Shown: in pieces, positions 1 to 64,000 of the stretch
Position numbering within the stretch: position 1 is the stretch's first letter
How the letters are laid out: each line of letters opens with the position of its first letter
Virus record (IMG/VR): IMGVR_UViG_3300044617_001934
Coordinates: 1,134-65,133 of that record
Reading direction: 5' to 3' (one strand)
DNA: 64,000 nt
From: a virus
Taxonomy: Duplodnaviria > Caudoviricetes
Position numbers and translations under genes: made by a program
The notes under the pieces: generated by a model
Seen by the model: the letters and a program-made list of their open reading frames with translations, nothing else
What the model was told of the DNA's origin: nothing
The model's database searches: none

Positions 1-76
1 ACTAGCAGCAGGTAAGCGATAGAGAGTTAAGTTAAGTTGCTTTAACTTTCTCTCCACATTTATAAATGTACACCAT

Positions 77-292
77 CTATTCTAACTTGTCAAGTGATTT
101 TGAAAAATTTTCTTGAAACCACTCCAAAGACTTACTGGATAAGACTTCCACGAAATTAACTAAGTCTGGATTGATAGTTTTTCCATAACTGCGGGCATAT
201 CCTATAGAAATTAGTTTTCTCGTTAAATTCTCTTTGCAAGTCTCGGTGCATCTGGCTTTTATCTCTGTTGTCCGGTTAAGCGATGGACGCAT
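77..292 (-). CDS. hypothetical protein
   Basis: 71-aa ORF, ATG start preceded by AAGGA; same strand as neighbours. Confidence 0.5.
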   Translation of the reverse strand: MRPSLNRTTEIKARCTETCKENLTRKLISIGYARSYGKTINPDLVNFVEVLSSKSLEWFQENFSKSLDKLE

Positions 293-462
293 GATTTTAT
301 CCTTTATAGCTGTACACCAATAACTATAACAGATGCTTTTGTCAATAGCTGTTATGCGAATGAGGAAATTATCATAAAAATAAAAATGCCAGGAAACTTA
401 ACGAAAACTCGTACAATTTCCCGGCATATTATGTTAAATTTTAGAGAACTGATGGCTTTGAC

Positions 463-1197
463 CTACCTACTAGTCCGCTTAACCTGTACCTTAGCGGTTT
501 CTTTCTTGACAGCCTTAGCCGCTTTCTTTTCTGCTAGGGCTTGTCTTTTGGCCTCTTTCTCAGCCTCTATCGCTTCAAAGACTCCCTCAAATTGTTGTAG
601 CAAAAGCATATCTGCTTCTGTTAAAGCCTCTTCATCTTCCTTAGCTTCAGAGCCACAAGCGATCGCGCACATTCCTACAACACTTTCAATTACACCATCA
701 GGCTCATCAAAAGAATCTATTTCTTCAGGTATTTGCCCAAATTTGAGTATTTCTGCACAAGGTACATCCCATTCGATTAATCCCTTTATTTTATTGATGT
801 CTTGTTCAAATGGTAGAGTTCCTGCCAGTTTAGACGCTAACGAGTCTAACCGTTTGCGATCAAACTTAGTGTAAGGCAACCAGGCAAATAATTCCTTTTT
901 ACCTATAGCTACTCTGAGACAGCACATCGGGGCAAATCTCCCATCCCACTCTACAAAGGCATCAAAAACTGAAACAACTATGACCGTGGCTGTTTCATCG
1001 TTCCCGATAACTAGAGGGATTAGAGACATATTGATAGTCTCTCTTTTGAAGTGCAGGTATTCACCTGCTTTTTTATCCCAAAGGATCTTAAAGCACCCTG
1101 GTAGACTTGACTCCTCCTGCTCTACCTTCCGAGTTGTTCCAAAGATAGATAATTCTTTATCTTCTTTTGCTAGTTGTCTTTGTTTACGGGTTGCCAT
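463..1197 (-). CDS. hypothetical phage protein with basic C-terminal tail
   Basis: 244-aa ORF, AGGT upstream, follows 1208-1513 closely. Confidence 0.75.
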   Translation of the reverse strand: MATRKQRQLAKEDKELSIFGTTRKVEQEESSLPGCFKILWDKKAGEYLHFKRETINMSLIPLVIGNDETATVIVVSVFDAFVEWDGRFAPMCCLRVAIGKKELFAWLPYTKFDRKRLDSLASKLAGTLPFEQDINKIKGLIEWDVPCAEILKFGQIPEEIDSFDEPDGVIESVVGMCAIACGSEAKEDEEALTEADMLLLQQFEGVFEAIEAEKEAKRQALAEKKAAKAVKKETAKVQVKRTSR

Positions 1198-1207
1198 GTT
1201 TTTTTAC

Positions 1208-1513
1208 CTATTTTACTGATGGATACTGTTTATCCAAATATTCAATCACAAGGTCATTAACGGCGTTTTGCCAATTCCTTTGACCTGAAGCAGCACAAAG
1301 TAACTGTTTCATCCTTTCAGGCATCTGGTAAGCATATTCTTTGTCAAATTCCATAGACCTAATCAGGTCTATGTCGTATTTACAGAACATCTCTAATGCT
1401 TTTTTGACTGCCTTAGAACTGGTGTTCTCCTTAAATAGCATTTTGAGATGTTCTACCATCTCAATGTCTACCTCAACACAAGTGAAAAGTTCTCTCCTCC
1501 CTTTTTTTGTCAT
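1208..1513 (-). CDS. putative ribbon-helix-helix-like DNA-binding protein
   Basis: 101 aa; two short beta-helix-helix-like segments (VEVDIEMVEHLK..SSKAVKKAL; AYQMPERMKQLL..WQNAVNDLV). Confidence 0.45.
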   Translation of the reverse strand: MTKKGRRELFTCVEVDIEMVEHLKMLFKENTSSKAVKKALEMFCKYDIDLIRSMEFDKEYAYQMPERMKQLLCAASGQRNWQNAVNDLVIEYLDKQYPSVK

Positions 1514-1539
1514 AAAAATGTTTTTTTAAGGACAATACA

Positions 1540-1568
1540 ATATTAAAACATTCTCCATAAAATGTCAA
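1540..1568 (-). promoter_or_regulatory. sigma70-type promoter TTGACA-17-TAATAT
   Basis: Read directly, just upstream of ORF 1208-1513. Confidence 0.65.
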
Positions 1569-1671
1569 GCTGTTTCATGGAATTTATTAAATTTAAGCAT
1601 AAGTGTATAATAAATTTTGAGTAGCTAATATAACAACAGATAAAAATGATCTAATTTTTGAATTTTAGTGT

Positions 1672-1740
1672 AAATTCCAGAACGGTGCAAAGTTTTCCAT
1701 AAACTTTTTAGACATCTAGGAAAAATTCCAGAACGGTGCA
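1672..1740. repeat. 18-bp direct repeat AAATTCCAGAACGGTGCA x2 (iteron-like)
   Basis: Copies at 1672-1689 and 1723-1740 in a long non-coding region. Confidence 0.8.
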
Positions 1741-1825
1741 GCTTTTTCCAGGACATAGGTAAACAGTGTAAAATCCTTATAACTATTGCTAGGTAAGGAT
1801 TACAGAGCTATCTAAGTATAGATAA

Positions 1826-1877
1826 CTGATCCAAAAATTGTAAGATTATATTATTTCTATTACAAACTTTGGATCAG
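1826..1877. repeat. inverted repeat CTGATCCAAA..TTTGGATCAG, candidate origin/priming hairpin
   Basis: Imperfect palindrome; right arm matches 36643-36661 at 18/19 nt. Confidence 0.6.
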
Positions 1878-2173
1878 AACCCTTGAAAAATAAATACTTT
1901 CAGGCTGAAAATACTATGAATCTTACCTTTATTCTGGAAAAGTAATATATTTAATCTTACGTAAATACTCAATATTTTAAATTTCTATAGTCGCCTAGAT
2001 TACATCAAAACTGTTTTAGTTAATATTTTTAGTAAATTTGTACTATTTTAACTATTTATAGACATGACAAATGTCTGAACATTAAGAAAACAAACTTTTT
2101 AATGTCCTGTCAAATATATTAAATTTTTAGGTAATCATAAGCATCTATAGCTTACGTCTACTGTTTCATTTGA

Positions 2174-2277
2174 CTTAGGAGACTTATTCCCCGCTAAGGG
2201 ACGAGAGCTTTTATTATCAAATCCTCACAGCTAGGAGGTTGCTTTCTCAGATTAATAAACCCCGCTAAAGGTTTATA
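2174..2277 (+). CRISPR. degenerate CRISPR-repeat-like pair with 33-nt spacer (tentative)
   Basis: CTTAGGAGACTTATTCCCCGCTAAGGGACGAGAGC and CTTTCTCAGATTAATAAACCCCGCTAAAGGTTTATA resemble cyanobacterial repeats of the CTTTC..CCCCGCAAGGGGAC.GAAAC type but are not identical to each other. Confidence 0.3.
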
Positions 2278-2309
2278 GGTTAGTGTCAAGCTATTTTTTA
2301 TAGGTGTTC

Positions 2310-2601
2310 TTTTTTTTTGTGCTTCTTAGGCGCGACTTGTAGCTTGTTTTATATCGTTCTGACAACTTTATTCAAGGAAGTTCCTTCTGTCAGACAGATA
2401 GCCTTAAAGACATAGTGACTTTTTCATTATAGGAGTTTCGCCTATAAAACCTCTTATCACGGAGTCCAGCCTATTTACCCTGTACTGCCGACTGGAGGCT
2501 ACTGTTTATCCCCAGTAGTGGGAAATAGCCAATCGCTTTTCTAATAATCTCCTAAGAGAACTAAGCACTGATCGAGGGAAGTGTACCTTATTATGCGGGC
2601 T
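2310..2601 (-). ncRNA. putative large structured non-coding RNA
   Basis: Perfect promoter at 2636-2608, no convincing ORF, long-range closing helix (2319-2336 with 2531-2568) enclosing several hairpins. Confidence 0.6.
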
Positions 2602-2607
2602 GTTTAT

Positions 2608-2636
2608 ATTATAGGCAAATATTTTATGAATGTCAA
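2608..2636 (-). promoter_or_regulatory. perfect consensus sigma70 promoter TTGACA-17-TATAAT
   Basis: Read directly on the minus strand. Confidence 0.8.
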
Positions 2637-2815
2637 GAAATAGCAGAAAAGCAAAAATCAGCAGAAGAAATAACTTCCACTGACTATTAGAGAACACAAT
2701 TTTTAAATATTAATCATTTTAGGACTGTTACCAGCAGTCCTTTTTATTTTAGCTATTTTATCTCAATTGTCAAGTTACAGCACGTAGTCAGTACAAGTAT
2801 AAAATAAACTTCCTA

Positions 2816-2884
2816 AAATTAAGTATAAATCTTAGAAAAAATCGCTTGACAATTTATCTAAGATAAAATATATTAGATTACATG
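2816..2884 (+). promoter_or_regulatory. duplicated early promoter copy 1 (TTGACA-17-TATATT with palindromic spacer TTTATCTWAGATAAA)
   Basis: -35 at 2846-2851, -10 at 2869-2874; near-identical to 4262-4330. Confidence 0.8.
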
Positions 2885-2958
2885 AGGCAAAAACACATTA
2901 TCCCAAAATAACCCGCAAGCCTCACGGGGTGCAGATGGTAGGGACTCTGCTTAGGAAA

Positions 2959-3732
2959 ATGGATAATTTAAATTTGACTATTGGTGGACGCAGCTTGGTG
3001 AGTTCTCGTTTTGCTAGAGGCAAGAGAAACTACATAAATTCATATTGTTATATTCAGGCAACAGCATCTTCCTCTCGAAGAGGAACTGTATCATACGGGA
3101 TTGCTATGTATGTGGAAGTGAAGGGTAAGTTTGAGGAAATTGTAACCCTGAGAGGGGTAGATGTAAAAGATATAGACCTTGAATATCTAAGGTATTCCTT
3201 GTTAAATCGGATATCAAAACTGGAGTTTCATTACTCCTACTACAAACCTCACGACCCAGAAGCCTTTGCATATCAAATGAATGTGTTGCGTTGGGTATTT
3301 TTAAATTGGAATACCCCAGTAGTAAAAGCTATCGTAAAAGCTGAGTACCCAGACGTAACTGGAGAATTTCTCAACTGGAAGAAACAAAATATAGAAAAAC
3401 CAGAGCCAAAACCAGAACCAAAACCAGAACCAAAACCAGAGCCAAAACCAGAGCCAAAACCAGAACCAGAACCAAAACCAGAACCAGAACCAGAACCAAA
3501 ACCAGAACCAAAACCAGAACCAAAACCAGAACCAAAACCAGAGCCAAAAGTAGAGCCAAAACCAGAGCCAAAACCAGAACCTACCCATCTTTATGACGCT
3601 TGCTACTGCAAGGTCATTGCAGAATGGGAAGATTTTGGGGATACCTGGGTTAAAATCCAGTATACCCGTGGTATGCAGCAGAAAGAAACAGTTTTAAAAG
3701 AGAAGTTTTTGGCTAAAGCCATGACTCTCTAA
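2959..3732 (+). CDS. hypothetical protein with long Pro-Glu/Pro-Lys linker
   Basis: ORF track 2929-3732; ATG 2959 preceded by AGGAAA; (PEPK)n tract. Confidence 0.75.
3397..3582 (+). repeat. coding 12-bp minisatellite (AAACCAGARCCA)n
   Basis: About 15 tandem units encoding KPEP. Confidence 0.95.
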
Positions 3733-3850
3733 ACCAAATGCTAAACCCGAATGCGGGGATTTTAAGCGAGAGCGAGATTAAGTCTCGCTTAATTTTAAAT
3801 CCTGAAAAAGTTTTTCTCCCGTCTTCCCTCTAAAGTAGCTATGGCTGCTT

Positions 3851-4186
3851 ATGAAGAGGGTAAAAAAGCGAATGTCATCTACTGAGGAAACTATTATGAT
3901 ATACGCAAACTGGAAATTGGACCGTCCAAAACGTTTCCAAGGTTCTCTTCCTAAAGGGGACTACGGAAACACAGGATATTCTCACAATCCTTACCTTTCC
4001 CCTTATGACTCCCTTAGTCATAAACAACAGCGTCACTTCCGACGCTATATCTTACACCTGTGTCAAGAGGTAAAACTTGGTAGCCTCCCCAAAATAGAGG
4101 CTATTAAGCTCATCCGATGCAAGCACCTCATCGGATTAAAAGATGGAATAGACTTATTTAACGAAGTTTATCAAACCATCAAATAA
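3851..4186 (+). CDS. protein with ribosomal L7/L12 C-terminal-like motif
   Basis: KIEAIKLIRCKHLIGLKDGIDL resembles the L7/L12 CTD motif KIxVIKxVRxxTGLGLKEAKDL. Confidence 0.55.
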   Translation: MKRVKKRMSSTEETIMIYANWKLDRPKRFQGSLPKGDYGNTGYSHNPYLSPYDSLSHKQQRHFRRYILHLCQEVKLGSLPKIEAIKLIRCKHLIGLKDGIDLFNEVYQTIK

Positions 4187-4220: not shown

Positions 4221-4261
4221 ATTATCTGCTAGTCCCTTGCGAAGTATAAAATGACTTGAGA

Positions 4262-4330
4262 AAATTAAGTATAAATCTAAGAAAAAATTGCTTGACAATT
4301 TATCTTAGATAAAATATATTAGATTACATA
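4262..4330 (+). promoter_or_regulatory. duplicated early promoter copy 2
   Basis: -35 at 4292-4297, -10 at 4315-4320, same palindromic spacer. Confidence 0.8.
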
Positions 4331-4366
4331 AGGACGAAACAAAGAACAAAAACAGAGGTAAAGGTT

Positions 4367-49594: not shown

Positions 49595-50689
49595 CTATAA
49601 TTTATTATCAAAAGCAGAATGTGTCCTGGACATGGGAAGAGACACGCTTAAAGGCAGTCCATAAATTCTTGCTGTAGCTGAAGTAAAAGGAACACAAAAC
49701 ACCCTTCCATCAGGTAAAAGCACCCCTCCAACAAACGCAGCACCACCAGGATAAGTACCTGATGGAGTCGTCAATGTATCAGTAATAGGATTGTAAATTC
49801 TTGCTGTAGTTGAACTGTGGGGAACACAAAACACCCTTCCATCAGGTAAAAGCACCCCTCCATAAAACGCAGTACCACCAGGATAAGTACCTGATGGAGT
49901 CGTCAATGTATCAGTAATAGGATTGTAAATTCTTGCTGTAGTTGAAAGGTAGGGAACACAAAACACCCTTCCATCAGGTAAAAGCACCCCTCCACCAAAC
50001 GCACCACTAGGATAAGTACCTGATGGAGTTGTTAGGGTATCAGTAATAGGATCGTAAATTCTTGCTGTAGTTGAACTGTAGGGAACACAAAACACCCTAC
50101 CATCAGGTAAAAGCACTCCTCCAATAAACGCAGACCCACCACCAGGATAAGTACCTGATGGAGTCGTCAATGTATCAGTAATAGGATTGTAAATTCTTGC
50201 TGTAGCTGAAGTAAAAGGAACACAAAACACCCTTCCATCAGGTAAAAGCACTCCTCCAGCAAACGCACCACTAGGATAAGTACCTGATGGAGTTGTTAGG
50301 GTGTCAGTAATAGGATTGTAAATTCTTGCTGTAGTTGAACTGTAGGGAACACAAAACACCCTACCATCAGGTAAAAGCACCCCTCCAACAAACGCAGCAC
50401 TAGGATAAGTACCTGATGGAGTTGTTAGGGTATCAGTAATAGGATCGTAAATTCTTGCTGTAGTTGAAAGGTAGGGAACACAAAACACCCTTCCATCAGG
50501 TAAAAGCACCCCTCCATAAAACGCATTACCACCAGGATAAGTACCTGATGGAGTTGTTAGGGTGTCAGACAAAGTTCCGTAATTGTAATTACGGGCTGCC
50601 ATAAAATTGGCAACAGGTTCAAGAGGAAAATAGTAGTTTGGGAAAGGATAGCTCTTATTCAAAACTACAATTCTAGTAGAAGGTCTCAT
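49595..50689 (-). CDS. seven-repeat Kelch-like beta-propeller protein
   Basis: 7 x 42-44 aa GGVLLPDGRVFCVP..TARIYNPITDTLTTPSGTYP. Confidence 0.85.
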   Translation of the reverse strand: MRPSTRIVVLNKSYPFPNYYFPLEPVANFMAARNYNYGTLSDTLTTPSGTYPGGNAFYGGVLLPDGRVFCVPYLSTTARIYDPITDTLTTPSGTYPSAAFVGGVLLPDGRVFCVPYSSTTARIYNPITDTLTTPSGTYPSGAFAGGVLLPDGRVFCVPFTSATARIYNPITDTLTTPSGTYPGGGSAFIGGVLLPDGRVFCVPYSSTTARIYDPITDTLTTPSGTYPSGAFGGGVLLPDGRVFCVPYLSTTARIYNPITDTLTTPSGTYPGGTAFYGGVLLPDGRVFCVPHSSTTARIYNPITDTLTTPSGTYPGGAAFVGGVLLPDGRVFCVPFTSATARIYGLPLSVSLPMSRTHSAFDNKL

Positions 50690-63602: not shown

Positions 63603-64000
63603 TTATTTTTCCTCTTGTATTTCTTCAGTTCTTAACAAATTTTCATAATGACCTTTTAGATCATCACCCCAGTCTGCCATTGCTTCCTGCACTGTTTCCT
63701 CATCTACAGTAGAAATTTCCTTTAATTCTTCTGTAGTAATTATATCACCAGTAACCTGTAAAGGTACACTAAATTCAGCTACTTTATCTGACAATTCGGC
63801 TACCTGTTCCCTGATAATCTCTAAATCTGCTTTTATATTAGTCTCCGGTTGTTTGATGGTTAACTCGGTAAACTCCTGCACTGTTTCCTCATCTACAGTA
63901 GAAATTTCCTTTAATTCTTCTGTAGTAATTATATCACCAGTAACCTGTAAAGGTACACTAAATTCAGCTACTTTATCTGACAATTCGGCTACCTGTTCCC
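63603..64000 (-). CDS. 3' end of a gene entering from beyond the window (portal by position)
   Basis: Open frame runs to window edge; acidic repeat C-terminus; upstream of MuF/protease cluster. Confidence 0.45.
   Translation of the reverse strand, partial: EQVAELSDKVAEFSVPLQVTGDIITTEELKEISTVDEETVQEFTELTIKQPETNIKADLEIIREQVAELSDKVAEFSVPLQVTGDIITTEELKEISTVDEETVQEAMADWGDDLKGHYENLLRTEEIQEEK
63685..64000. repeat. 189-bp-period duplication, at least 127 bp identical
   Basis: 63685-63811 identical to 63874-64000. Confidence 0.9.

What the first reader, a model, noticed from the sequence alone, without database searches (positions are those of the whole stretch)
2120..2636. Large structured non-coding RNA behind a perfect sigma70 promoter
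Seen: TTGACA-17-TATAAT on the minus strand (2636-2608) fires into an ORF-poor, GC-richer stretch with nested complementarity. Outer helix: GTGCTT/AAGCAC (2319/2563), TCTTAGG/CCTAAGA (2324/2551), GCGA/TCGC (2332/2533). Inner elements: TCTGACA/TGTCAGA (2358/2388), AAGGAA/TTCCTT, TAGCCT/AGGCTA (2399/2496), TTATAGG/CCTATAA (2427/2441), TCCAG/CTGGA (2465/2492), CTACTG/CAGTAG (2499/2513). Further hairpins continue to about 2120, and several mismatches resolve as G-U pairs on the minus strand. I do not recognise it as tRNA, tmRNA, RNase P, 6S or an intron. Inference: an unannotated 290-480 nt phage RNA; it could be a decoy/scaffold, a Cas-binding RNA, or a replication primer since it points towards the repeats and palindrome at 1672-1877.
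Basis: partly seen in the sequence, partly recalled or inferred. Interest (0 to 1): 0.75.

Follow-up and report, generated by a model that had tools for sequence, protein, structure and literature searches.

The report
Orphan non-coding RNA in a cyanophage
A phage of filamentous cyanobacteria carries, behind a textbook promoter, a gene-free stretch that turns up as a discrete RNA in two environmental RNA libraries, but its fold is unproven, it has no known relatives, and its job is unknown.

Summary
The sequence facts hold. TTGACA-17-TATAAT at 2636-2608(-) is the only perfect match in the window. All 8 helix string pairs sit where stated. The stretch has no ATG ORF of 20 aa or more and is GC-richer than its flanks.

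The fold is weak evidence. The 250-nt core gives z -1.8 to -2.1, the opposite strand does as well, and the 350-490-nt versions are no better than shuffles. No Rfam family, tRNA or tmRNA matches.

The new evidence is from RNA libraries. Of window 1000-4000, two RNA libraries from different studies hold only 2232-2581 and 2336-2577, apart from low-complexity matches. These contigs stop 20-24 nt below the predicted start, while DNA runs continue.

No homologue was found in phage, viral, metagenome or genome collections, nor in the related Nodularia phages. Covariation is therefore untestable.

Best reading (0.45): a host-RNA-polymerase-made, stable, orphan phage RNA of at least 335 nt. Rivals: an origin or primer transcript, an operon leader, or chance. 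A Cas-binding role has no support.

The parts
2608..2636 (-). Consensus sigma70-type promoter TTGACA-17-TATAAT. The predicted start is near A2601.
   Evidence: One search gives 12 of 12 matches. One search shows it is the only perfect match in 64 kb. The start site is inferred from the usual spacing of about 7 nt after the -10 box and has not been measured.
2232..2581 (-). Stretch held as whole contigs in RNA libraries. X20 holds a 335-nt contig covering 2232-2581. X24 holds a 243-nt contig covering 2336-2577.
   Evidence: table 8, records 9 and 12. Both have 0 other letters. No loose end was listed at 2577/2581 among the loose ends shown (122 more not shown). DNA run X5 continues across 2540-2692. 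The strand is inferred from the promoter, because contigs carry no strand.
2319..2568 (-). Candidate closed multi-helix core.
   Evidence: All strings were confirmed. Pairing probabilities are 0.9-1.0 for the UCUGACA and UCCAG helices, about 0.58 for UUAUAGG and about 0.4 for the outer helix. The core gives z -1.8 to -2.1.
2304..2318 (-). A-rich linker (A9 plus GAACAC) that varies between strains.
   Evidence: table 4: 15 nt are left out in the X20 contig and 1 nt is left out at 2310 in DNA run X5. The deletion leaves the predicted fold and its energy unchanged.
2184..2275 (-). 3' part. It holds two hairpins with near-identical loop and stem words (CCUUUAGCGGGG at 2271-2260 and CCCUUAGCGGGG at 2200-2189), the hairpin CCUC..GAGG at 2238-2223, and the 3' arm (2194-2184) of an 11-bp helix with 2557-2547.
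   Evidence: Direct-repeat family D10. The 11-bp helix appears in the minimum-energy and centroid folds and. The 3' end of the RNA is not determined, and no intrinsic terminator was found on this strand between 2600 and 1500.
2063..2120 (-). Conserved block AATAT..ACAGGACATTAA..TTAATGTTCAGACATTTGT.ATG. It is an inverted repeat with a loop of variable length, and is probably a protein-binding DNA site.
   Evidence: Exact 12-nt and 17-nt matches to the Nodularia phages. It is one of only two significant blastn matches between the two intergenic regions. The neighbouring protein is only 42% identical.
1655..1877 (.). AT-rich origin-like or operator-like region. It has two 45-nt direct repeats (1655-1750) and an 18-nt-arm palindrome (1826-1877).
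   Evidence: families D1 and I6. A local fold of 1900-1781 gives z -4.35. GC is 0.23-0.30. A role as an origin is inference.
2645..2773 (-). Separate small-RNA candidate directly upstream. It consists of the promoter TTGACA-16-TAAAAT (2773-2746), a 5' hairpin, an AU-rich spacer and a terminator hairpin with a U-run (2685-2646).
   Evidence: One search finds the promoter (11 of 12) and the terminator. One search gives z -3.56, with 1 of 200 shuffles as good. No RNA-library contig was seen for it.

Best explanation
This is a real, orphan, phage-encoded non-coding RNA gene.

Proposed working:
1. The host's primary-sigma RNA polymerase starts at about 2601 on the minus strand, from the strongest promoter in the window.
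2. It makes a transcript of at least 335 nt (2581 to 2232 or beyond, possibly to about 2184) that carries no ORF.
3. The 5' 250 nt can close into a multi-hairpin domain. It is joined by a dispensable A-rich linker to a 3' part with two look-alike hairpins.
4. The RNA accumulates as a discrete, stable species.
5. It then most likely acts in trans as a protein-binding RNA, a scaffold or decoy for a host or phage protein early in infection, and not by antisense pairing.

Shown: the promoter, the lack of ORFs, the complementary segments, the presence in RNA libraries with concordant 5' boundaries, and the absence of known-family matches.

Inferred: the strand, the start site, stability, the fold, and the whole mode of action.
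For: - Promoter: 12 of 12 matches and unique in the window.
- Consensus-like promoters are enriched in this phage: 7 sites against 1.05 expected. This fits early transcription by host RNA polymerase.
- No ATG ORF of 20 aa or more.
- GC of 0.40-0.44 within flanks of 0.23-0.30.
-, RNA libraries X20 and X24, which one search lists under different studies. Of window 1000-4000 they hold only 2232-2581 (depth 13.7) and 2336-2577 (depth 36.4), plus mismatched low-complexity pieces at 3400-3570.
- Both contigs have 0 mismatches and stop at 2581 and 2577, which is 20-24 nt below the predicted start. No loose end is listed there among the loose ends shown (122 more not shown). DNA run X5 runs on across 2540-2692.
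- DNA runs X5 and X10 cover 25 and 22 of 30 bins at depths of 2-10.
- The 15-nt linker deletion in X20 leaves the predicted fold intact.
- No complementarity of 13 nt or more to the rest of the window. There are 7 matches of 12 nt, which is about chance. This argues against an antisense mode.
Against: - The read-laying tool itself warns that presence in an RNA library does not show transcription, and that concordant contig ends are only a weak hint. Contigs give no strand, ends or levels.
- One of the two runs (X24) is only guessed to be RNA.
- Folding energy is marginal for the core and nil for the longer transcript. The opposite strand folds as well.
- The outer helix has a pairing probability of only about 0.4 and has competing alternatives.
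- No terminator defines a 3' end.
- No homologue was found anywhere that was searched, so there is no covariation and no evidence of selection on the RNA.
- The positional counterpart in Nodularia phages shows no sequence similarity and no excess structure: z +1.31, with 19 of 20 shuffles as good.
- No partner protein is identified.
Confidence: 0.45

Rival explanations
1. Origin-activating or primer transcript. Transcription from the strong promoter runs toward the conserved block (2120-2063) and the AT-rich repeats and palindrome (2060-1650). There it opens the duplex or forms an R-loop whose processed 3' end primes leading-strand synthesis. The upstream fold governs hybrid formation, as recalled for ColE1 RNA II, the T4 oriF/oriG R-loops and the T7 primary origin.
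For: - The promoter points at an AT-rich region (GC 0.23-0.30) with iteron-like direct repeats and a palindrome.
- A block conserved with Nodularia phages lies between them.
- No terminator lies between 2600 and 1500 on this strand.
- In Nodularia phages the leftward genes lie two genes from a gene annotated as a DNA polymerase processivity factor.
- The window encodes two helicases.
Against: - The origin is not mapped. The repeats could equally be operators.
- The RNA-library contigs laid end at 2232 and 2336, upstream of the putative origin.
- A primer precursor is not expected to accumulate as a discrete abundant species (recalled knowledge).
- The conserved block lies 58 nt from the end of the Nodularia records. 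It could therefore be a packaging or other site.
Confidence: 0.2
2. Long 5' leader of the leftward operon (the 101-aa gene at 1513-1208 and the 244-aa gene at 1197-463). It would carry cis-acting elements, with the two look-alike hairpins and the alternative CUUAGG pairings acting in antitermination, attenuation or mRNA stabilisation. The species seen in RNA libraries would be its stable processed 5' fragment. P4 CI RNA and P1 C4 RNA are recalled precedents.
For: - No terminator lies between the promoter and the operon.
- The word CCUAAG occurs twice (2330-2325 and 2189-2184) and competes for one CUUAGG (2555-2550).
- The hairpin word is repeated as UUAGCGGGG (D10).
- The A-rich linker could be an RNase E-type cut site (inference).
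Against: - The operon has its own promoter, TTGACA-17-TAATAT at 1568-1540, with 10 of 12 matches.
- A 1.09-kb leader is unusually long.
- No ligand-sensing or antitermination family matched in Rfam.
Confidence: 0.15
3. No functional RNA. The complementary segments are chance. The promoter gives an incidental transcript, or the pieces in the RNA libraries are carried-over DNA or an assembly quirk.
For: - Fold z-scores are within or near the shuffle range, and the wrong strand does as well.
- There are no homologues and no covariation.
- The tool warns about DNA in RNA libraries, and X24 is only guessed to be RNA.
Against: - A unique 12 of 12 promoter.
- A GC-rich island without ORFs in an AT-rich spacer.
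- Two libraries, listed under different studies, hold the same 240-350 nt at depths of 14 and 36, with ends 4 nt apart, and nothing else of the 3 kb apart from low-complexity matches. DNA runs at depths of 2-10 cover most bins.
Confidence: 0.15
4. Guide or scaffold RNA of a Cas, TnpB or IscB-type nuclease, or an RNA anti-CRISPR.
For: - Relatives carry IS200/IS605 tnpA and tnpB near the counterpart locus.
- Another cyanophage, CL131, is reported to carry a CRISPR array next to a TnpB (PMC6293099, passages read).
Against: - None of the 20 largest of 42 direct-repeat families in the window is CRISPR-like.
- None of the 25 proteins scanned matched a Cas, TnpB, IscB or reverse-transcriptase family.
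- No Rfam match reached a gathering score.
- Only about 47% of the genome is in hand.
Confidence: 0.03

Closest known systems
GOLLD and ROOL, large ornate phage- and prophage-associated RNAs. Properties are recalled. The abstract of PMC12286853 was seen in the listing.
   Same: A long non-coding RNA carried by a phage, with no ORF, no known function and detection in environmental data.
   Different: No Rfam family reached its gathering score. This RNA is shorter, at about 335-420 nt. It has no homologues and no covariation support. Its fold is not statistically distinguishable from shuffles beyond the 250-nt core.
ColE1 RNA II, the T4 oriF/oriG R-loop transcripts and the T7 origin promoters (recalled).
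   Same: A strong promoter lies a few hundred nt upstream of an AT-rich, repeat-bearing region. A foldable transcript is aimed at that region.
   Different: No origin is mapped here and no RNA-DNA junction is known. The species seen in RNA libraries ends upstream of the repeats.
P4 CI RNA and P1/P7 C4 RNA, stable regulatory RNAs processed from operon leaders (recalled).
   Same: The RNA is transcribed from an early promoter ahead of an operon. Internal repeated and complementary words (CCUAAG twice against one CUUAGG) could pair in alternative ways.
   Different: Those RNAs are about 70-80 nt long and have defined antisense targets. Here the species is at least 335 nt and no target of 13 nt or more exists in the window.
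T4 stable RNAs, species 1 and 2 (RNA C and RNA D), small phage RNAs of unknown function (recalled).
   Same: A phage-encoded, abundant, non-coding RNA that is not a tRNA and has no assigned role.
   Different: The T4 RNAs are 120-140 nt and are part of the tRNA cluster. No tRNA genes occur in this window.
The positional counterpart in Nodularia phages 2AV2, kac65 and kac68 (record positions about 1-716, minus strand).
   Same: The layout is the same: a TTGACA promoter at about 716, then roughly 700 nt with inconsistent small-ORF annotation, then the conserved ACAGGACATTAA..TGTTCAGACATTTGT block, then an AT-rich spacer, then the gp111 homologue.
   Different: There is no sequence similarity to the RNA here. 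It shows no excess folding, with z +1.31. The record break falls inside it, so continuity across the ends is assumed.

Membership tests
Any Rfam 15 family. From memory these include 6S, tmRNA, RNase P, group I and II introns, GOLLD, ROOL, HEARO, tracrRNA and phi29 pRNA. | The covariance-model score reaches the family's gathering threshold. | tested here: not met
   0 of 4227 families matched over the whole window. In 1500-3000 at E up to 10 there were 8 matches, all far below threshold; the highest-scoring reached 23.1 of the 60 bits needed. In 2180-2610 there was 1 match, CyaR, at 18.6 of 47 bits.
tRNA and tmRNA | A cloverleaf or tRNA-like domain found by ARAGORN. | tested here: not met
   0 genes in the window.
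Structured non-coding RNA in the strict sense | Folding energy beyond dinucleotide shuffles, specific to the transcribed strand. | tested here: inconclusive
   The core gives z -2.11 (5 of 200 shuffles) and -1.79 (11 of 300). The opposite strand gives -2.46. Longer spans give -0.78 to +0.18.
Structured non-coding RNA in the strict sense | Compensatory base changes among homologues. | not testable with these tools
   No homologue was found. The environmental copies that were laid are identical apart from indels in the linker.
Independent RNA gene (promoter plus terminator unit) | Its own promoter. | tested here: met
   A 12 of 12 consensus promoter, unique in the window.
Independent RNA gene (promoter plus terminator unit) | An intrinsic terminator or a defined 3' end. 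| tested here: not met
   No terminator-like site lies on the minus strand between 2600 and 1500. The RNA contigs end at 2232 and 2336, inside predicted structure.
Expressed RNA | Found in RNA libraries as a discrete species. | tested here: inconclusive
   Two libraries hold just this stretch, with 5' boundaries 4 nt apart. However, contigs carry no strand or ends, DNA carry-over cannot be excluded, and X24 is only guessed to be RNA.
Origin primer transcript (ColE1 RNA II type) | The 3' end or an RNA-DNA junction lies at a mapped origin, with RNase H-type processing. | not testable with these tools
   Only the geometry is seen: the promoter points at AT-rich repeats and a conserved block.
CRISPR, TnpB or IscB guide RNA | An adjacent effector gene and a repeat, guide or transposon end. 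| tested here: not met
   No such protein family matched among the 25 proteins scanned. No CRISPR-like repeat family was seen among the 20 shown of 42. Only about 47% of the genome was available.
Antisense regulatory RNA | Extended complementarity to a target transcript. | tested here: not met
   The longest matches to either strand of the window are 12 nt. There are 7 of them, which is about the chance number. Host transcripts and the missing half of the phage were not tested.

The most novel reading that the evidence does not exclude
This is the founding member of a new class of very stable, protein-free or protein-binding structured RNAs of Nostocales cyanophages. It would be made in such amounts early in infection that it survives in lake and even wastewater RNA pools. 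It would act as a decoy against a host defence or RNA-processing factor, or as an architectural RNA at the replication and packaging control region, next to a second small RNA gene.
Probability: 0.15. Interest if true: 0.75.

Novelty: new member of a known kind. Interest (0 to 1): 0.5.

Why it matters
Phages of bloom-forming filamentous cyanobacteria are barely characterised. In my three literature searches no paper described a non-coding RNA of the Nodularia phage group.

A phage RNA that accumulates enough to be assembled from environmental RNA libraries would be a handle on early infection control or replication in this group. It would also be a candidate new RNA family.

If it proves to be only a leader or an origin transcript, it still marks the early control region and probable origin of a poorly known phage lineage.

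Tried and rejected
Homologue searches that found nothing:
- blastn of 2100-2700 against 50,697 phage records gave no match at 1e-5. At E up to 10 there were 21 records, each covering 7% of the query or less and none a cyanophage.
- The own contig holds a single copy.
- Three whole Nodularia phage genomes gave only 13-24-nt matches, best E 0.1.
- An 18-mer from the large hairpin loop gave 0 hits in viral contigs.
- The same 18-mer gave 3 hits in genome contigs (two Chitinophaga, one Paenibacillus). An overlapping 18-mer gave 22 hits in metagenome contigs.
- None of these 25 loci shares anything beyond a 21-nt match in one locus.

Relatives sought through proteins:
- The 244-aa and 101-aa neighbours and the capsid protein gave none in viral contigs.
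- Alignment-based scans returned only the kac68 phage and one 3.2-kb contig.
- Nothing was found in metagenome contigs.
- The 16-mer of the conserved block hit 19 viral loci, of which only 1 (kac68) is a true match.

Other points:
- The Nodularia positional counterpart is not alignable and not stably folded.
- Local 120-nt windows across the RNA show no marked stability.
- In one search neither RNA run covers the flanking genes, the small-RNA candidate or the origin-like region.
Host genomes could therefore not be searched beyond the one 18-mer.
- No covariance model was built. With a single sequence and an ambiguous fold it would add little to BLAST.
- Paper supplements were not consulted.

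Full report
CONTEXT

The window is nearly all of a 65,133-base IMG/VR virus record that CheckV rates as about 47% complete. Its major head protein is 57-58% identical to those of 9 Nodularia phage records (2AV2, kac65 and kac68 types, genus Ravarandavirus). The next hits are at most 29% identical, out of 40 matching records. PHROG matches identify a head protease, a major head protein and two helicases. The phage is therefore a distant relative of siphoviruses that infect filamentous, nitrogen-fixing cyanobacteria. That the host is a freshwater member of Nostocales is my inference from this kinship and from the lake-water runs that hold the sequence.

WHAT THE SEQUENCE SHOWS

- The promoter TTGACA-17-TATAAT at 2636-2608(-) is real. 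It is the only perfect match in the window. Seven sites have at most one mismatch, against 1.05 +/- 0.97 expected, and 0 of 100 shuffles reach 7.
- No ATG-initiated ORF of 20 aa or more overlaps 2100-2650. There are 5 TTG or GTG frames, and the longest runs across the promoter.
- GC is 0.405-0.435 in 2301-2600 and 0.23-0.30 on either side.
- The locus lies in a 1.4-kb spacer between a leftward operon (101-aa and 244-aa genes) and rightward genes. The spacer has several consensus-like promoters and an 88-nt promoter cassette that recurs at 4254-4341.

IS THE FOLD MORE THAN CHANCE?

Only marginally.
- 2310-2575(-) folds to -68.1 kcal/mol, z -2.11, with 5 of 200 shuffles as good.
- The 250-nt core 2319-2568 gives z -1.79 (11 of 300). 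The opposite strand gives -2.46 (5 of 300), so there is no minus-strand advantage.
- 2232-2581 gives -0.53 and 2215-2601 gives +0.18. 2120-2610 gives -0.78.
- In the 387-nt context the UCUGACA/UGUCAGA and UCCAG/CUGGA hairpins are robust, with pairing probabilities of 0.9-1.0. The outer helix reaches about 0.4, UAGCCU/AGGCUA about 0.23 and CUACUG/CAGUAG about 0.07.
- An 11-bp helix between 2557-2547 and 2194-2184 appears in both the minimum-energy and the centroid folds. It competes with the outer helix for the same CUUAGG word.

The fold is therefore a hypothesis, not a finding.

KNOWN FAMILIES

- No Rfam family reaches its gathering score anywhere in the window: 0 of 4227.
- Permissive scans of 1500-3000 and 2180-2610 give only far sub-threshold matches.
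- ARAGORN finds no tRNA or tmRNA.

EXPRESSION EVIDENCE

All 24 runs listed hold part of 1500-3000. One is on record as RNA and one is guessed to be RNA. I laid window 1000-4000 on both of these and on two DNA runs.
- The metatranscriptome X20 holds one 335-nt contig that maps end to end on 2232-2581. It has 0 substitutions and a 15-nt deletion at 2304-2318, at depth 13.7.
- X24 holds one 243-nt contig on 2336-2577 with 0 substitutions, at depth 36.4.
- Their only other pieces are mismatched fragments on the proline/glutamate/lysine-coding repeat at 3400-3570, which many organisms share.
- The two contigs stop at 2581 and 2577, 20-24 nt below the predicted start at 2601. No loose end is listed there among the loose ends shown (122 more not shown). 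DNA run X5 carries on across 2540-2692.
- DNA runs X5 and X10 cover 25 and 22 of 30 bins at depths of about 2-10.

The tool's own caution applies. Contigs show presence, not strand, ends or level. DNA can sit in RNA libraries. Concordant stops in two studies are a weak hint. Even so, two unrelated libraries that each hold just this ORF-free stretch at depths above those of the DNA runs are best explained by an abundant RNA. The strand is inferred from the promoter. I found no plus-strand promoter upstream of 2232.

VARIATION

- The copies laid are identical in the RNA. The exceptions are the linker: 15 nt (A9 plus GAACAC) are absent in X20 and 1 nt is absent at 2310 in X5.
- The deletion does not change the predicted fold or its energy. 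The linker therefore looks dispensable.
- With no substitutions, covariation cannot be assessed.

HOMOLOGUES

None was found.
- blastn against phage records found nothing relevant.
- The own contig holds a single copy.
- The three whole Nodularia phage genomes gave nothing.
- Loop 18-mers gave 0 viral hits. Of the 25 genome and metagenome loci they did hit, none shares anything beyond a 21-nt match in one locus.
- Protein-anchored scans for related phages returned only the kac68 phage and one 3.2-kb contig.

COMPARISON WITH THE NODULARIA PHAGES

- The 101-aa gene is 42% identical to the 103-aa ORF of 2AV2, which occupies the same position as kac65 gp111. The 244-aa gene weakly matches gp112. 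Two genes further on lies a gene annotated as a DNA polymerase processivity factor.
- Upstream of gp111 only one block is conserved with this window: AATAT..ACAGGACATTAA..TTAATGTTCAGACATTTGT at window 2120-2063. It shows exact 12-nt and 17-nt matches.
- The block is an inverted repeat whose loop length differs between the phages. It lies 58 nt from the right end of all three records.
- Beyond it, assuming the records are circularly continuous (they have no terminal repeat), lie about 700 nt with inconsistent small-ORF annotation and a TTGACA promoter near 716. The layout is therefore the same.
- That stretch is neither similar in sequence nor stably folded: z +1.31. I treat it as a positional analogue only.

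MECHANISM

The best-supported reading (0.45) is an independent, early, host-polymerase-driven non-coding RNA that accumulates as a stable species and acts in trans, most likely by binding protein.
- Antisense action on the phage is unlikely. No complementarity of 13 nt or more exists in the window.
- The main rival (0.2) is an origin-activating or primer transcript. The promoter points, with no terminator between, at the conserved block, an AT-rich stretch, two 45-nt direct repeats and an 18-nt-arm palindrome.
- A leader of the leftward operon (0.15) is weakened because that operon has its own promoter at 1568-1540.
- Chance or artefact (0.15) is kept alive by the weak fold statistics and the limits of contig data.
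- A Cas, TnpB or IscB guide (0.03) has no support.

LITERATURE

- Searches for the 2AV2 phage name, for cyanophage plus non-coding RNA plus Nodularia, and for large phage-encoded structured RNAs found no description of such an RNA (listings seen).
- Passages of PMC6293099 and of bioRxiv 10.64898/2026.02.14.705889 were read. Neither bears on this locus.
- Supplements were not consulted.
- The comparisons with ColE1 RNA II, the T4 and T7 origins, P4 CI, P1 C4, the T4 stable RNAs and the properties of GOLLD and ROOL rest on my own recall.

VERDICT

The words 'large structured' are not established. The RNA is an orphan and its function is open. Interest is moderate (0.5).

Noticed in passing
window 2645-2773 (-): A tidy small-RNA gene candidate lies directly upstream of the big-RNA promoter. 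It has the promoter TTGACA-16-TAAAAT (11 of 12 matches), a 7-bp 5' hairpin, a 31-nt AU-rich spacer, and a 12-bp terminator hairpin with a U-run. The fold gives z -3.56, with 1 of 200 shuffles as good. It matches no Rfam family; the nearest, SpF39, scores 23 of the 60 bits needed.
   Followed up: partly
window 2063-2120; Nodularia phage records, 58 nt from their right ends (L025-L027): A block of about 55 nt, ACAGGACATTAA..TTAATGTTCAGACATTTGT, is conserved almost exactly between phages whose neighbouring protein is only 42% identical. It is an inverted repeat with a loop of variable length. Extra GGACAT and AGACAT copies lie nearby, for example at 1749-1757 on the plus strand. It is probably a binding site for a replication, packaging or regulatory protein.
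   Followed up: partly
window 2808-2895 and 4254-4341: An 88-nt promoter cassette is repeated at 89% identity. It contains GCTTGACA, a palindromic ATCTTAGA..TCTAAGAT element and TATATT. The extended GCTTGACA word also occurs at 1575-1563(-) and, without a usable -10 box, inside the RNA at 2296-2284(-).
   Followed up: no
contig ends: L063 1-225 against 1460-1684; window 63685-63811 against 63874-64000: Both ends of the contig lie in repeats. The left 225 nt repeat an internal stretch at 97.8% identity. A 127-nt unit is duplicated exactly at the right end (D5). These may be assembly artefacts or real tandem duplications.
   Followed up: no
window 2929-3732 (+): A 267-aa ORF contains a long (K/E)P repeat, PEPK many times over, encoded by a 12-nt tandem repeat. 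This repeat attracts many unrelated contigs in all four runs laid and should be masked in any read-based work.
   Followed up: no
L003/L028 1003-2705 (Nodularia phages kac65 and 2AV2), absent from kac68 (L024): An IS200/IS605 element (tnpA and tnpB) sits next to the positional counterpart of this locus in two of the three Nodularia phages. Among these phages the first 120 nt or so after the counterpart's promoter (record positions about 570-690) vary strongly, while positions 1-430 are almost invariant.
   Followed up: partly
window 49613-50582: Six to seven tandem copies of a unit of about 130 nt lie inside the 364-aa ORF at 49595-50689(-), next to tail-region genes (D1 and D3). This is a repeat-domain structural protein.
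   Followed up: no
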